Virus record (IMG/VR): IMGVR_UViG_3300034071_001431
Span: 50,035-114,034 of that record
Reading direction: 5' to 3' (one strand)
DNA from: a virus
Taxonomy: Duplodnaviria > Caudoviricetes
DNA length: 64,000 bases
The notes under the pieces are model-generated. The model did not search any database, was not told the origin of the DNA, and saw only the letters and a program-made list of their open reading frames with translations. Of the stretch, positions 8,982 to 60,976 are shown piece by piece; within the stretch, counting starts at the first letter, position 1, and each line of letters begins with the position of its first letter. The translations under genes and the position numbers were made by a program.

Positions 8982-9066
8982 TGGTGCGGCTGGTCAGACT
9001 CGAACTGACACGTCTTTCGACACGAGCTTCTAAGACTCGCATGGCTACCAATTACATCACAACCGC
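8982..9066 (-). tRNA. tRNA-Leu(TAG)
   Basis: CGAGT-CTTAGAA-GCTCG; variable arm. Confidence 0.9.
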
Positions 9067-9504
9067 TTTTTTCTTTCTGCCACCCTTACGATTAAGAGCA
9101 ATTTTTCTTTTGTGCTCTTCAGTTAGGGTCTTACCTTTATTTGCTTTGCCGCCAGCAGATTTATTACCTTTAGCGTTTAATCTACAAGCTTCTTCGTAAC
9201 CATATTTGGCAACTGTTCTGTCCCAAATTGAATTGCCAGGGCCTTGATCTAATCTATTTTCTTGTGCTGTACCCCAATATAAATGATTAGGATTACTACA
9301 CTTTTCGTTATTACAAGCATGACAGATATGTATCTTGTGCCCGCTCGGAATAGTTGTGTTTAGTATATGAGCCATTAAACCTTTACAATAACTAGACAAT
9401 CCACCTTTTATAGGTCCGCCTCGTTCTATACAGGGTTCTGTTAAAACTAAGTGCTGCTGTCTTGCTTCTTTAGGCTGTGTAATGTATTCTTCTATTAATA
9501 ACAT
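9052..9504 (-). CDS. HNH homing endonuclease with NUMOD3-like tail
   Basis: ICHACNNEKCSNPNHLYWGTAQEN (HNH) and GKTLTEEHKRKIA (NUMOD3); stop codon lies inside tRNA-Leu(TAG). Confidence 0.85.
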   Translation of the reverse strand: MLLIEEYITQPKEARQQHLVLTEPCIERGGPIKGGLSSYCKGLMAHILNTTIPSGHKIHICHACNNEKCSNPNHLYWGTAQENRLDQGPGNSIWDRTVAKYGYEEACRLNAKGNKSAGGKANKGKTLTEEHKRKIALNRKGGRKKKAVVM

Positions 9505-10118: not shown

Positions 10119-10147
10119 AGTGTAGCAGTTTTGATATGTGTTGTCAA
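10119..10147 (-). promoter_or_regulatory. Internal sigma70 promoter TTGACA-17-TACACT
   Basis: Read from the minus strand. Confidence 0.65.
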
Positions 10148-11222: not shown

Positions 11223-11250
11223 ATTATACACTCTTTAATTTATTTGTCAA
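11223..11250 (-). promoter_or_regulatory. sigma70 promoter TTGACA-16-TATAAT
   Basis: Consensus hexamers with a 16-bp spacer, as in rrn P1-type promoters. Confidence 0.75.
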
Positions 11251-11644: not shown

Positions 11645-11722
11645 TGGTCTCTCGTGTAGGATTCGAACCTACGTTCTTCTTGCTCCCAAAGCAAGTGCCA
11701 TACCAGACTAGGCGAACGAGAG
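11645..11722 (-). tRNA. tRNA-Pro(TGG)
   Basis: CTTGC-TTTGGGA-GCAAG; C1:G72, A73. Confidence 0.92.
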
Positions 11723-11745
11723 TTAAACGCACTCATATGAATGCG

Positions 11746-11828
11746 TATAATAAAGTACACTAATTGCTCTCTTAAGACATAATCCACATTGCGTGGGACC
11801 TAGTTGCCGATTAATGTACTTTATTATA
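11746..11828. repeat. 19-bp inverted repeat (one G:U) enclosing a structured loop
   Basis: tataataaagtacactaat / attaatgtactttattata. Confidence 0.8.
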
Positions 11829-11932
11829 ACAAGTATTTTCTGTTCACAAAAGAACATGCCATCCACTTGTCCGCCCATTTGCCTTTTTAACGTGTGTGCC
11901 GCGATCTCGTTTCGCATAACACGTACTGCTTA

Positions 11933-12061
11933 CTACTTAGAAAGTTTCTTTAAAAGATTAACATTTTCTGTTAATAGTTGGGTTACCCTTTCTAATTTTT
12001 GTTCTAATACCACTATCCTTTGTTCTGGAGTCGGCTTTTGAACAGTTTCTTTTTTATCCAT
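11933..12061 (-). CDS. 42-aa coiled-coil peptide, first gene after the attenuator
   Basis: AAGGAG RBS; MDKKETVQKPTPEQRIVVLEQKLERVTQLLTENVNLLKKLSK shows heptad periodicity. Confidence 0.65.
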   Translation of the reverse strand: MDKKETVQKPTPEQRIVVLEQKLERVTQLLTENVNLLKKLSK

Positions 12062-12078
12062 CTCCGGCTCCTTAAAAG

Positions 12079-12113
12079 CAAAAAACCCTAGTCTTTCGAG
12101 CTAGGGTTTAAGT
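12079..12113 (-). terminator. Intrinsic terminator (attenuator)
   Basis: AAACCCTAG-CTCGAAAGA-CTAGGGTTT followed by a U-run. Confidence 0.85.
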
Positions 12114-12143
12114 AAAAATTCATTTCTGATATAAAAATAAACG

Positions 12144-12269
12144 TTAACTTAAACCCTCATTATGCGGTGTGCGATCATTACTGCCTAATGTCTCAATCGC
12201 TGACCAATAAGACATCGTGGCAAGTATCTGCACTGGTGATTTCTTAAATTGATTACACGTTTTAAACAT
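12144..12269 (-). CDS. Putative attenuator leader peptide (41 aa, all 20 amino acids)
   Basis: MFKTCNQFKKSPVQILATMSYWSAIETLGSNDRTPHNEGLS*; AAGGA RBS; last codons AGGGTTTAAGT are complementary to the terminator 5' arm. Confidence 0.7.
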   Translation of the reverse strand: MFKTCNQFKKSPVQILATMSYWSAIETLGSNDRTPHNEGLS

Positions 12270-12310
12270 TTTGCTTTCGCTTCCTTTAATTAATTTCTTA
12301 TTAAGCTGCT

Positions 12311-12339
12311 ATTATATATTCTATTTATACTCTTGTCAA
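12311..12339 (-). promoter_or_regulatory. sigma70 promoter TTGACA-17-TATAAT with TATAAATA late promoter in the spacer
   Basis: Both motifs read directly; heads the tRNA array. Confidence 0.85.
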
Positions 12340-12363
12340 GTACTTTATCTATTTATTTATCAT

Positions 12364-13098
12364 TTATTTTTGAACCGGTGTTATATCCGGTGATTTTTTG
12401 AATCTTTGTCTAGTTTTACCGTGCATTGTATAAACACTATTGTCCGGTACATCATCTAATACCAAACTACCAATGTATACTATAGCATTATTACCTACAG
12501 TGAGCAAGTCTTTTTTTCTACTCGGTATTAATGTACTTCTAACTCCAATGCGAACATTGTTGCCAACTTTAACATGTGCTAAAATACTTGCGGCGCCGAT
12601 AATACTATTGCGCCCTACAGTTGTATCAACTAATCTTGTGTCCCAATCAATTACACTGTAATCACCTATTACTACATCTGATCCGATACTAGCATTAGAC
12701 AAAATCATAATACCTTTGCCCAATGTTAAATTACGTTTACTATGAAACCAATGCACATCTTTTGATATTAAGTTTACTACTGTTACACCTGCCTTGTCGA
12801 GTAACTCTAACCGTTGACGTCTAAGTGTATCTGCATCAAATTCTTGCCCTAGTGCTTGTTTACCATCCCACCAGTTTGCCGGAAAGAAATTGTATTTTGC
12901 CCATTTATTGTTAGGTACAAGTAATTCTTCTTCTGACCCTATTACAGGAATACCGCAAATCTCAGTGGTATTACCCCAATAGTGCTTATCTAGTATTCCG
13001 ATAATTTTATATCCGCTATGTTTAGCAGTTTCTATTATATCGGCTAGGTTTTGTCTACTACCAACCAATACTAATTTCTTTTTAAACAAGTTAAACAT
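12364..13098 (-). CDS. Sugar O/N-acetyltransferase (NeuD/PglD-like, left-handed beta-helix)
   Basis: N-terminal IIGILD..GIPVIG domain plus hexapeptide repeats. Confidence 0.8.
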   Translation of the reverse strand: MFNLFKKKLVLVGSRQNLADIIETAKHSGYKIIGILDKHYWGNTTEICGIPVIGSEEELLVPNNKWAKYNFFPANWWDGKQALGQEFDADTLRRQRLELLDKAGVTVVNLISKDVHWFHSKRNLTLGKGIMILSNASIGSDVVIGDYSVIDWDTRLVDTTVGRNSIIGAASILAHVKVGNNVRIGVRSTLIPSRKKDLLTVGNNAIVYIGSLVLDDVPDNSVYTMHGKTRQRFKKSPDITPVQK

Positions 13099-59926: not shown

Positions 59927-60880
59927 TTAAGCGTTAGCTATTTGTACGATACCAGTTGAAGGAGCAGCAAATGACCACTGTGCAGTAGCATCTGTTGCAA
60001 ATTCATATGAACCGCTCATTGTTTTACGTGTTAATAATGCTTTATGGCTTGTTAATTTTGTAACCCAATATGTACTACCATTAACATCAGTAGCAATAAT
60101 TGTACCTTGACCAGCTGCAACTACTGCTGCAACTAAAGTTACAACGCCTGTACCTTGTGCTGTTTCAACTTTCATTCTACGTGAACCTTTTTGCGCAACG
60201 ATGTCACCAACTACTGATGAACTACCACCGTTTACTGTAGGAACCCAAGCAGTAATAATAATTGCTGGCTCGCTGTTACCTGGAGCTGAGAATGTACTTA
60301 ATACTGAAGTTGCAACTGCTGCAACACCAGTGTTTGCACCTGTAACAATTGGCGCTGCATCTGCAGCGTTTGTGTAACCACTACCTGAATTTACAATTCC
60401 AATAGATTTAACACCGTATGTTAATGTTAAAGTACAACCAAGACCTAATGTTGAATTAGAAGTTGTTGCTTTAGCACCTGTTAATAATGCACCAGTGTGT
60501 GTGCCACCATCTAATACTGTAACTGTAGCAACACCGCCATCAACATCAAGTGTTGCAACTGTAAATGTCGAAACACCTGTACTTAATGTTACTGTTAAGA
60601 TATCACCAACTACATAATCATCTGATGTTGTAGTTTGTGCTACTGTAACTGTTGCTGATACTGCTTTCATAAGTGTAAGAGCCGGGCTTGATGTTGCTGT
60701 AACTGCGCCAACACTTGTTAAATCAGGTGCTGAAAATGTTATTACTGGTTTTGTAGTATACGTACCTGCTGTTCCAACAGTTACACTAGCAACAATCTTG
60801 CCACCTAAACCATCATCACCTGTATCTGTTGTTCCTAAATTTCTGTTACCAAAATATTTCTTATTTAACGGACGTCCCAT
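59927..60880 (-). CDS. Virion structural/decoration protein
   Basis: MGRPLNKKYFG start; T/V/A/G-rich; strong RBS; late promoter. Confidence 0.65.
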   Translation of the reverse strand: MGRPLNKKYFGNRNLGTTDTGDDGLGGKIVASVTVGTAGTYTTKPVITFSAPDLTSVGAVTATSSPALTLMKAVSATVTVAQTTTSDDYVVGDILTVTLSTGVSTFTVATLDVDGGVATVTVLDGGTHTGALLTGAKATTSNSTLGLGCTLTLTYGVKSIGIVNSGSGYTNAADAAPIVTGANTGVAAVATSVLSTFSAPGNSEPAIIITAWVPTVNGGSSSVVGDIVAQKGSRRMKVETAQGTGVVTLVAAVVAAGQGTIIATDVNGSTYWVTKLTSHKALLTRKTMSGSYEFATDATAQWSFAAPSTGIVQIANA

Positions 60881-60976
60881 TTGTTTCTCCTTATATAATT
60901 AGCGTTCTAACGCCTACGCAGTGGGTAACTGCATAAACTCTCATTCAAGAGTGAACAGTAGTATTTAGTAATTAGA

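What the first reader, a model, noticed from the sequence alone, without database searches (positions are those of the whole stretch)
12079..12339. Candidate pan-amino-acid translational attenuator at the head of a phage tRNA array
Seen: promoter TTGACA-17-TATAAT, an AAGGA RBS, then a 41-codon ORF (12269-12144; MFKTCNQFKKSPVQILATMSYWSAIETLGSNDRTPHNEGLS). It contains all 20 amino acids and 30 different codons by hand count, including G/C-ending ones this AT-rich phage tends to avoid (ACG, GCG, CCG, CGC, GCC, GTG). Its last codons, AGGGTTTAAGT (12157-12147), are the exact 11-nt complement of ACTTAAACCCT (12113-12103). That segment overlaps the 5' arm of an intrinsic terminator (AAACCCTAG..CTAGGGTTTTTT), so the two pairings are mutually exclusive. 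Established: this is trp/his-type attenuator geometry. A ribosome at the stop codon masks the antiterminator arm and termination occurs; an upstream stall allows read-through. Inference: instead of repeating one codon, this leader samples nearly the whole code. Loss of any charged tRNA (starvation or a host anticodon nuclease) would then induce the downstream array, whose tRNAs cover all 20 amino acids (Phe lies slightly further downstream). I know of no described equivalent. Caveat: internal promoters at 11223-11250 and 10119-10147 can feed part of the array independently.
Basis: partly seen in the sequence, partly recalled or inferred. Interest (0 to 1): 0.92.

Follow-up and report, generated by a model that had tools for sequence, protein, structure and literature searches.

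The report
Translation-sensing attenuator before phage tRNAs
A lake phage and its relatives place a tiny translated test gene, which usually contains all twenty amino acids and is wired to a switchable transcription stop, in front of a structured RNA and their tRNA genes, so these RNAs are probably made more when ribosomes decode slowly.

Summary
The 41-codon ORF (12269-12144, minus strand) has 20 amino-acid types and 30 codons. Its last codons are the 5' arm of a long hairpin A (12157-12103). The 3' arm of A shares AAACCCT with an intrinsic terminator T (12109-12080).

Peptide-based searches, which are blind to the arms, gave 51 usable loci and 32 unique sequences. All 32 keep ORF, A and T with the overlap. 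A has 6 of 18 pairs with compensatory changes, including three-way co-variation of the shared segment.

The frame stays open in 38 of 38 unique sequences, and neither other frame is open in any of them. The peptide itself drifts almost freely: pN/pS is 0.7-0.9, against 0.22 for the neighbouring gene. This is the signature of a leader peptide.

42 of 72 unique family peptides contain all 20 amino acids, against a background of 0.4%. One large subgroup has only 18-19, lacking Cys and Val, although its array encodes tRNA-Cys and tRNA-Val.

My best reading is a ribosome-dependent transcription attenuator. Pan-amino-acid sensing is plausible but unproven. Internal promoters limit what the element controls. 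I ran no functional test.

My literature searches found no published case for tRNA genes. This scan has already noted the same kind of element on other DNA.

The parts
12311..12339 (-). Sigma-70-type promoter: TTGACA, 17 bases, TATAAT. The spacer carries TAAATA, which is conserved in all subgroups.
   Evidence: 12 of 12 matches. The spacer motif is found with 0 mismatches only here in the window. Promoters sit at the same place in relatives.
12270..12306 (-). 5' untranslated leader with the Shine-Dalgarno sequence AAGGA (12286-12282). The transcription start is inferred, not mapped.
   Evidence: Read. In the other subgroups the -10 box lies only 6-10 nt before the ATG, which is a leaderless-type arrangement.
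12144..12269 (-). Leader ORF1: 41 codons plus TAA, all 20 amino acids, 30 different codons.
   Evidence: The family has 46 protein clusters. The frame is open in 38 of 38 unique sequences and the other frames in 0 of 38. pN/pS is 0.7-0.9.
12103..12157 (-). Hairpin A, the antiterminator. Its 5' arm covers codons 38-41 and the stop codon. Its 3' arm ends in AAACCCT.
   Evidence: Stability is -20.0 kcal/mol. 98.5% of cells are paired, and 6 of 18 pairs show compensatory changes; 0 of 500 shuffles reach the covariation score.
12103..12109 (-). Shared segment AAACCCT. It can pair either with AGGGTTT in ORF1 (hairpin A) or with AGGGTTT of the terminator's 3' arm.
   Evidence: Three-way co-variation in L075, L079 and L077.
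12080..12109 (-). Intrinsic terminator T: AAACCCTAG, a 9-nt loop, CTAGGGTTT, within a run of six T.
   Evidence: Stability is -13.1 kcal/mol. The stem co-varies, TAG:CTA to TGG:CCA, TAAG:CTTA and CCAGG:CCTGG. The loop is replaced in L003 while the stem is kept.
11933..12073 (-). AAGGAG ribosome-binding site (12073-12068) and ORF2: 42 aa, with a coiled-coil-like TPEQR...LExKLxR motif. It is the first gene after the terminator.
   Evidence: It is absent in many 1b relatives, so the switch does not need it.
11723..11925 (-). Conserved structured RNA element between ORF2 and tRNA-Pro. It has an AAACGAG hairpin, a GGGCGGA motif and a long closing helix.
   Evidence: 28 unique relatives with co-varying helices, read by eye. 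No Rfam match.
11645..11722 (-). tRNA-Pro(TGG), the first tRNA after the attenuator. The array continues to 4051.

Best explanation
This is a ribosome-dependent (leader-peptide) transcription attenuator.

Transcription starts at the consensus promoter and ORF1 is translated as it is made. The last codons of ORF1 (GAG GGT TTA AGT TAA) are the 5' arm of a long hairpin A. The 3' arm of A ends in AAACCCT, which is also the 5' arm of the intrinsic terminator T.

- If a ribosome reaches the end of ORF1 while RNA polymerase is still transcribing T, it covers the AGGG arm. AAACCCT then pairs with the downstream AGGGTTT, T forms, and transcription stops at 12080.
- If the ribosome is late, stalled more than about 5 codons upstream, or absent, A forms first and sequesters AAACCCT. 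Polymerase then reads on into ORF2, a conserved structured RNA and the tRNA genes.

The leader carries nearly every amino acid only once or a few times, so slow decoding of almost any codon class would delay the ribosome. The element therefore reports general decoding speed, and possibly the state of every tRNA species.

Shown: the anatomy, its conservation, the covariation and the open frame. Inferred: translation, the timing race and the direction of regulation.
For: 1. Anatomy in the window. With nothing masked the minimum-energy fold is A (-20.0 kcal/mol) and T is lost. With only the GGG masked it is inner A plus T (-21.2). With a ribosome footprint at the stop codon it is T alone.

2. Conservation without ascertainment on the arms. 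Peptide-pattern scans plus the window gave 55 loci. 4 of them are cut less than 110 nt after the stop. The other 51 give 32 unique segments, and 32 of 32 have a terminator and an A helix that overlaps its 5' arm.

3. Covariation.
- A: 18 pairs, 98.5% paired, 6 pairs changed on both sides; 0 of 500 shuffles reach the score.
- The outermost pair, which uses the shared segment, is AU in 9, GC in 3 and GU in 3 sequences.
- Pair 32:71 of the 31-sequence alignment is GC 18, AU 8, GU 5 and broken 0, while the encoded last residue flips between Ser and Asn.
- T: 96.7% paired, with one compensatory pair.
- Where the shared segment gains a C (L075, L079, L077), both partners gain a G.

4. Near iso-energetic switch. 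The minimum-energy fold is full A in 20 and inner A plus T in 10 of the 30 relatives folded.

5. ORF behaviour typical of a leader.
- 38 unique ORFs of 38-48 codons. The other frames carry 2.9 and 5.9 stops on average and are open in 0 of 38.
- Length changes keep the frame.
- pN/pS is 0.93 and 0.70 (0.71 and 0.68 for close pairs), against 0.22 for the adjacent acetyltransferase.

6. Context. tRNA genes follow in 10 of the 13 loci scanned. In the other 3 the fetched DNA shows no tRNA within the 0.6-1.6 kb held downstream. ORF2 is missing in many relatives while the switch stays.

7. Breadth of the leader. 42 of 72 unique peptides have all 20 types, 16 have 19 and 11 have 18.
Against: - There are no expression or termination data. 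The metatranscriptome contigs laid on the region come from a 92%-alike relative, run continuously from leader to tRNA-Pro, continue upstream of the promoter, and cannot show ends or levels.
- No conserved pause or anti-antiterminator hairpin was seen inside ORF1, so the timing race is assumed.
- In the subgroups with a -10 box 6-10 nt before the ATG there is no Shine-Dalgarno sequence. Translation then depends on leaderless initiation in an unknown host.
- In four unique variants (L034, L055, L058, L076) the ORF runs 8-9 codons past the 5' arm. A ribosome at the stop codon may therefore not cover the arm.
- Invariant YWS and D-R-x-P, kept through synonymous changes, point to a peptide-specific role that the simple model does not need.
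- Consensus promoters at 11250-11223 and 10147-10119 make most of the array independent of this switch.
- The structure shuffles ignore relatedness.
Confidence: 0.68

Rival explanations
1. ORF1 is an ordinary small phage protein gene. A is a 3' stabilising or processing hairpin, T is its plain terminator, and the A/T overlap has no regulatory role.
For: - YWS and D-R-x-P are invariant or nearly so across 34 divergent family members, through synonymous changes.
- Gene callers predict the ORF as a protein in 46 clusters.
- Promoter, small gene, terminator is also the plainest reading of the anatomy.
Against: - pN/pS is 0.7-0.9, against 0.22 for the neighbouring gene.
- There is no Pfam or PHROG family.
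- The overlap of A with T is kept in 32 of 32 unique sequences, with three-way co-variation of the shared segment. A plain terminator does not need this.
- The last residues change (EGLS, GDLS/N, GGLN, GGSS) while the pairing is kept.
Confidence: 0.12
2. The A/T switch is real, but a trans-acting factor sets it rather than the ribosome. The factor could be a phage or host RNA-binding protein, as with LicT/SacY-type antiterminators on RAT hairpins, or an RNA. It would stabilise or melt A.
For: - A hairpin that overlaps a terminator by a few bases is also the geometry of protein-dependent antitermination. I take this from abstracts seen only in the listing: PMC3575810 and PMC5393181.
- The inner part of A and the TAAATA motif in the promoter spacer are conserved.
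- There is no conserved pause hairpin.
Against: - The open frame always ends in or near the 5' arm, in 38 of 38 unique sequences. A protein-set switch does not require this.
- ORF2, the only always-adjacent candidate protein, is absent in many relatives.
- No T-box or other Rfam cis-regulator matches at E up to 10.
Confidence: 0.1
3. The element is an attenuator, but it is a specific nascent-peptide sensor and not a sampler. The conserved W...D-R-x-P would interact with the ribosome tunnel to pause or arrest translation, in the manner of TnaC or RAPP/RAGP-type arrest peptides. This would happen in response to one particular signal. The all-20 content would then be incidental.
For: - W22, D32, R33 and P35 are invariant or at least 90% conserved across 34 divergent members, while the rest of the peptide drifts.
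- D-R-A/T/E-P-G/N/H resembles the R-A-P-G/P arrest cores. I recall this resemblance; no call tested it.
Against: - The distance from P35 to the 5' arm varies from 1 to 5 codons among subgroups.
- The spacing differs from TnaC (recalled).
- This reading does not explain why 42 of 72 peptides keep all 20 types and why Cys moves between at least 10 alignment columns.
Confidence: 0.08

Closest known systems
Leader-peptide transcription attenuators of enterobacterial amino-acid operons (trpL, hisL, pheL, leuL; the multivalent thrL and ilvL). Named from established knowledge, not from a call.
   Same: A short translated ORF in the leader, an intrinsic terminator before the regulated genes, and an alternative hairpin that excludes the terminator. 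The ribosome's position on the ORF decides which hairpin forms.
   Different: - There are no runs of one regulatory codon; almost every amino acid appears once or a few times.
- There are two competing helices instead of the 1:2, 2:3, 3:4 scheme. Without translation the default is therefore read-through, not super-attenuation.
- The regulated products are a structured RNA and tRNAs of a phage, not biosynthetic enzymes.
whiB7 uORF attenuator of mycobacteria (PMC10274678; outline and abstract read)
   Same: According to the abstract, stalling in a uORF is believed to cause antitermination, deprivation of many amino acids and loss of tRNAs or tRNA synthetases activate it, and the response is set by the uORF's coding sequence. 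It is a broad translation-stress sensor.
   Different: The whiB7 uORF is specifically enriched in alanine and controls a transcription factor in a bacterium. The element here has an even, near-complete composition and sits in a phage before tRNA genes.
The inducible long tRNA array (trn operon) of Anabaena PCC 7120 (PMC8421152 and PMC10272220; outlines and abstracts read)
   Same: A horizontally spreading array of more than 20 tRNA genes that is silent by default and induced when translation is impaired. The proposed biological logic is the same.
   Different: According to the abstracts, control there is by the ribbon-helix-helix repressor TrcR acting at the promoter. It is not a leader peptide with a terminator switch, and the setting is cellular, not phage.
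T-box riboswitches (established knowledge)
   Same: Both sense tRNA charging by a choice between terminator and antiterminator.
   Different: A T-box binds one uncharged tRNA directly and needs no ORF. No T-box match was found in 11700-12500 at E up to 10.

Membership tests
Leader-peptide (ribosome-mediated) transcription attenuator | A short ORF with a start signal in the transcribed leader, upstream of the regulated genes | tested here: met
   41 codons with an AAGGA site 12 nt upstream. The frame is kept open in 38 of 38 unique relatives, and the other frames are open in 0 of 38.
Leader-peptide (ribosome-mediated) transcription attenuator | An intrinsic terminator between the leader ORF and the regulated genes | tested here: met
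   A 9-pair stem followed by T6, -13.1 kcal/mol. It is present in 32 of 32 unique segments and has compensatory stem changes.
Leader-peptide (ribosome-mediated) transcription attenuator | An antiterminator helix mutually exclusive with the terminator | tested here: met
   The shared AAACCCT segment. 6 of 18 pairs of A are compensatory and 0 of 500 shuffles reach the covariation score. The overlap is kept in 32 of 32 unique segments.
Leader-peptide (ribosome-mediated) transcription attenuator | The ribosome's position on the ORF decides which helix forms (stop codon or sensing codons placed against an arm) | tested here: inconclusive
   The stop codon lies inside the 5' arm in 28 of 32 unique segments, and 27-29 nt past the start of the arm in the other 4. 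This shows geometry only; the function is not testable here.
Leader-peptide (ribosome-mediated) transcription attenuator | Translation of the ORF and regulated 3' ends at the terminator in vivo | not testable with these tools
   Only assembled metatranscriptome contigs were available. They cannot show ends or levels.
trp/his-type attenuator specifically | Tandem or clustered codons of the amino acid that is sensed | tested here: not met
   No codon occurs more than 3 times, and there are 30 different codons in 41.
trp/his-type attenuator specifically | A 1:2 anti-antiterminator or pause hairpin that gives termination when the leader is not translated | tested here: not met
   With nothing masked the minimum-energy fold is the antiterminator A. 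By eye, the internal ORF hairpin of the window's subgroup is not kept in the other subgroups.
T-box riboswitch | Match to the T-box covariance model (specifier loop, T-box bulge) | tested here: not met
   The Rfam scan of 11700-12500 at E up to 10 gave three chance-level hits and none to T-box. At gathering thresholds the window gave only tRNAs and freshwater-2 RNA.
TrcR-type repression of tRNA arrays (Anabaena) | A ribbon-helix-helix repressor and its operator at the array promoter | not tested
   The TAAATA motif in the promoter spacer is conserved, but I did not look for a repressor.

The most novel reading that the evidence does not exclude
The leader is under selection to contain every amino acid. 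Shortage, or cleavage by a host anticodon nuclease, of any single tRNA species would then delay the ribosome and switch on transcription of the phage's own replacement tRNA set. Once the tRNA supply is restored the switch would close again. This would be a universal, self-correcting sensor of the tRNA pool that a virus uses against starvation and tRNA-targeting defences.
Probability: 0.35. Interest if true: 0.92.

Novelty: new variant of a known kind. Interest (0 to 1): 0.8.

Why it matters
Leader-peptide attenuation is a textbook mechanism, but it is known for amino-acid biosynthesis and for some stress and resistance genes. In those cases the leader is enriched in the amino acid that is sensed.

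Here the same wiring stands in front of tRNA genes of a giant phage. The leader is spread over almost the whole amino-acid alphabet, and in 42 of 72 unique variants over all of it.

If it works as inferred, it shows how phages decide when to express their tRNA sets. It also links phage tRNA arrays to translation stress and possibly to tRNA-cleaving host defences. And it supplies a compact natural part that reports general decoding speed.

It is testable with simple reporter fusions.

Tried and rejected
- Near and distant DNA searches against cultured phages found nothing beyond tRNA-Pro. The nearest cultured phage by large terminase is the Pseudomonas jumbo phage PA5oct at 54%. It has no ORF1-family match, so its published omics cannot be used.
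- Rfam: no known RNA family covers the leader or the structured RNA downstream.
- PHROGs and Pfam: nothing for ORF1. ORF2 gave only a weak hit to an unnamed PHROG, E = 0.0076.
- The first pattern scan required both arms exactly, so it could not test their conservation. One of its 14 loci (L011) is an unrelated repeat. I replaced it with peptide-based scans.
- RNA evidence: four metatranscriptome runs from two studies hold parts of the region, as assembled contigs only.
  - A contig of depth 79/58 from a 92%-alike relative spans tRNA-Pro to the leader, with the hairpin region replaced by 95 other letters. It runs on past the promoter.
  - The lack of cover over ORF1 in two runs is not evidence.
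  - No conclusion on termination can be drawn.
- Codon rarity: the leader's codon-adaptation index is 0.563, against 0.686 +/- 0.084 for 41-codon windows (7th percentile). GC3 is 0.37 against 0.24. This is only mildly unusual and is also expected for a weakly constrained ORF, so I do not use it as support.
- Matching leader to array: the subgroup whose leaders lack Cys and Val still has tRNA-Cys and tRNA-Val in its array (L012). A strict rule that the leader mirrors the array is therefore rejected for that subgroup.
- No second copy of the leader family exists in the 114-kb contig.
- I could not obtain DNA for the GVRS/GVQS, P0041 and P0043 peptide subfamilies, so their hairpins are untested.
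- I did not look at any supplementary files. For the three papers cited I read the outline and abstract only.
Full report
WHAT IS THERE

On the minus strand the window carries, in order:
- a perfect sigma-70-type promoter: TTGACA at 12339-12334, 17 bases, TATAAT at 12316-12311;
- an untranslated leader of about 37 nt with AAGGA at 12286-12282;
- a 41-codon ORF at 12269-12144;
- a long hairpin A at 12157-12103, whose 5' arm is made of the last four codons and the stop codon;
- an intrinsic terminator T: AAACCCTAG at 12109-12101, a 9-nt loop, CTAGGG at 12091-12086, and T6 to 12080;
- an AAGGAG site and a 42-codon ORF2 at 12061-11933;
- a non-coding stretch of about 200 nt;
- tRNA-Pro at 11722-11645, followed by the rest of a 25-gene tRNA block.

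The peptide has 20 amino-acid types and 30 different codons, and the 11-nt complement is exact.

The window is part of a 114-kb viral contig from a metagenome, estimated 33% complete. It belongs to a myovirus with tail sheath and large terminase. Its nearest cultured relative by terminase is the Pseudomonas jumbo phage PA5oct at 54%. DNA runs that hold the stretch are lake and freshwater metagenomes.

IS IT MORE THAN CHANCE?

All 20 amino acids occur in 105 of 25,884 41-residue windows of this contig's 86 long ORFs (0.41%). They occur in 0.48% of composition-matched random peptides. Among 108 short ATG ORFs, 1 has all 20, and it is this one. Taken alone, one such ORF among 108 is about what chance allows, so the single observation proves little.

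The hairpin/terminator stretch folds far better than shuffled sequence: z = -4.6, and 0 of 200 shuffles fold as well. Energetically, A (-20.0 kcal/mol) beats T (-13.1) when nothing is masked. Masking only the AGGG gives inner A plus T. Masking a ribosome footprint at the stop codon gives T alone.

RELATIVES

A first pattern scan found 13 related viral contigs, but it demanded both arms, so it could not test them.

I then searched with peptide patterns that do not touch the arms:
- YWS-centred patterns gave 21 viral loci and 16 metagenome loci.
- LG..AYWS and INSDREPG patterns gave 17 viral loci.
- A profile search of the protein database gave 46 clusters of 39-65 residues, all unnamed or called hypothetical.

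Several subgroups emerge. Their C-termini differ: EGLS, GDLS/GDLN, GGLN/GGLS, GGSS, GGGLS and REGWDGY, plus GVRS/GVQS known from proteins only.

Of the 55 loci (the window plus 54), 4 are cut less than 110 nt after the stop codon. The other 51 give 32 unique segments, and all 32 have a terminator and an A helix whose 3' arm overlaps the terminator's 5' arm:
- In 18 the uninterrupted helix overlaps by 7-9 nt, and in 1 by 5 nt.
- In 13 (subgroup 1b) the uninterrupted helix overlaps by 2 nt, then comes an A-A mismatch, and beyond it GGG:CCC pairs again. This is seen in the folds.

tRNA genes follow the cassette in 10 of the 13 loci scanned. In the other 3 the fetched DNA shows no tRNA within the 0.6-1.6 kb held downstream.

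In three relatives tRNA-Met and tRNA-Arg also lie shortly upstream. The cassette therefore heads the main block, not every tRNA.

COVARIATION

On 15 sequences of the non-1b subgroups, A has 18 pairs and 98.5% of cells are paired. 6 pairs changed on both sides, and 0 of 500 column shuffles reach the observed pairing or covariation score. Sliding the partner by 1-3 columns drops pairing to 20-59%.

The outermost pair, which uses the T of AAACCCT, is AU in 9 sequences, GC in 3 and GU in 3. In those three GC sequences (L075, L079, L077) the shared segment has become CCCC. Both the ORF arm (GGGG, which changes Glu to Gly) and the terminator's 3' arm (GGGG) have followed.

RNAalifold on 31 sequences finds 6 of 17 pairs with compensatory changes. 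Pair 32:71 is GC 18, AU 8, GU 5 and never broken, while the encoded last residue flips between Ser and Asn.

T is 96.7% paired with one compensatory pair. Its stem appears as CCCTAG:CTAGGG, CCCTGG:CCAGGG, CCCTAAG:CTTAGGG and CCCCAGG:CCTGGGG. In L003 the loop is replaced while the stem is kept.

The shuffles do not correct for relatedness. The slid controls and the independent subgroups argue that the signal is real.

Across relatives the minimum-energy fold is full A in 20 and inner A plus T in 10 of the 30 sequences folded. This is what one expects of a poised switch.

THE ORF BEHAVES LIKE A LEADER, NOT LIKE A PROTEIN GENE

- In 38 unique nucleotide versions the frame is open for 38-48 codons. 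The other two frames carry 2.9 and 5.9 stops on average and are never open.
- Length differences are whole codons.
- Differences are spread evenly over the three codon positions.
- pN/pS is 0.93 in the window's group (25 sequences) and 0.70 in the others (13 sequences). For close pairs it is 0.71 and 0.68. The adjacent acetyltransferase gene gives 0.22.

So what is kept is the act of translation, its length and its end point. Only a few residues are kept as well: YWS and D-R-x-P survive through synonymous changes.

In the window's group the start has a Shine-Dalgarno sequence. In the other groups the -10 box lies 6-10 nt before the ATG. That implies a leaderless or nearly leaderless message. 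This is an inference, because no start site is mapped.

THE ALL-20 PROPERTY

Of 72 unique family peptides (38-49 residues), 42 have all 20 types, 16 have 19, 11 have 18 and 3 have fewer.
- Shuffling residues within alignment columns gives 9.2 +/- 2.7 all-20 peptides; 0 of 500 shuffles reach 42.
- Within the window's broad group the figure is 36 of 39, against 20.8 +/- 2.3 (0 of 500).
- In the rest it is 6 of 33, against 2.3 (4 of 500).
- Redrawing every position that differs from the window's peptide predicts 5.9 all-20 peptides with proteome composition, or 10.4 with neutral codon composition. 41 of 71 are observed.

Cys, the rarest residue here (0.9% of the proteome), sits in 11 different alignment columns. 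In the window's group it is N-terminal only in 16 peptides, C-terminal only in 18, in both in 2 and in neither in 3.

These tests ignore shared descent. By my reading of the sequences, roughly a dozen lineages carry all 20 and about ten do not.

Evidence against a strict rule:
- The large MMQN... subgroup has 18-19 types, lacking Cys and often Val. Yet its array (L012) encodes tRNA-Cys and tRNA-Val.
- In the window Arg (codon 33) and His (codon 36) occur only within about 5 codons of the arm. A ribosome protects roughly 12-15 nt downstream of its P site (established knowledge). A stall at those codons should therefore still mask the arm, leaving 18 types in the effective sensing zone.

MECHANISM

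I read this as a two-helix, ribosome-dependent attenuator. A timely ribosome at the end of ORF1 hides AGGG, so T forms. A late or absent ribosome lets A form, and polymerase reads on.

It differs from trp and his in three ways. It has no repeated regulatory codon. It has no conserved 1:2 helix, so the untranslated default is read-through. And it controls RNAs, not enzymes.

What it controls directly is ORF2 (where present), a conserved structured RNA and the first tRNAs. Consensus promoters at 11250-11223 and 10147-10119 can feed the rest of the array.

ORF2 is absent in many relatives that keep the switch, so it is not part of the mechanism.

Four unique variants (L034, L055, L058, L076) carry an ORF that runs 8-9 codons past the arm. 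I cannot say whether the switch still works there.

WHAT IS KNOWN

Four searches for attenuation or leader-peptide control of phage tRNA genes turned up no account of it (searches gave none; one search gave the Anabaena papers below).

The closest published systems that I read (outline and abstract only) are:
- the whiB7 uORF attenuator, which responds to many amino-acid and tRNA defects but is alanine-enriched (PMC10274678);
- the Anabaena tRNA array, which is induced by translational stress (PMC8421152) through the repressor TrcR (PMC10272220).

Earlier notes of this same scan describe the same family on relatives, and codon-matched leaders before tRNA blocks in other giant phages. They are AI notes, not independent evidence. 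They gave me the two literature leads.

VERDICT

The attenuator reading is well supported by comparative evidence, though no functional test was run. The pan-amino-acid reading is plausible and partly supported. I class the element as a new variant of a known kind.

Noticed in passing
window 11723-11925 (-); also L009, L012, L034, L036 and others just after the terminator or ORF2: A conserved modular structured RNA of about 200-250 nt lies between the attenuator and the first tRNA.
- An outer helix (ACGTGT..ACACGT) encloses a hairpin with the loop AAACGAG. Its stem co-varies: GCGA:TCGC, AGGA:TCCT, GGGTA:TACCC.
- There is an invariant GGGCGGA.
- A long helix of about 13 bp differs completely in sequence between subgroups and encloses a variable insert.
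- There are 28 unique versions.
- No Rfam match.
- The automatic consensus fold failed on a poor alignment.
   Followed up: partly
window 12317-12333 (-), the promoter spacer: The spacer of the leader promoter carries TAAATA(A/G) in every subgroup. In the window only this promoter has it exactly. It may be an operator or a phage-specific promoter element.
   Followed up: partly
L067-L083 and L009-L021, upstream of ORF1: In most subgroups the -10 box lies 6-10 nt before the ATG and there is no Shine-Dalgarno sequence. The leader would then be a leaderless message. The window's subgroup and L076 have a UTR of about 37-45 nt with AAGGA.
   Followed up: partly
window 11933-12061 (-): ORF2 is a 42-50-residue coiled-coil-like peptide with an invariant TxEQR...KL.R motif. 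It directly follows the terminator in several subgroups but is absent in many 1b relatives. It gave only a weak hit to an unnamed PHROG.
   Followed up: partly
window 60878-60952 (-): A match to the Rfam family freshwater-2 RNA just above its gathering score: 50.9 against 49.9 bits.
   Followed up: no
window 9052-9504 (-): An HNH endonuclease gene sits inside the tRNA array (PHROG hits).
   Followed up: no
contig G000, long ORFs (position not determined): Some 41-residue windows of long ORFs hold only 6-11 amino-acid types. That indicates a highly repetitive protein somewhere in the contig.
   Followed up: no
window 12364-13098 (-) compared with L003 4001-4732: The upstream hexapeptide acetyltransferase gene is only 79% identical in protein to its counterpart in L003. 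Its last 70 nt or so, and ORF1, are almost identical in DNA: 1 difference in the 126 nt of ORF1. This looks like a mosaic or recombination boundary inside the gene.
   Followed up: no
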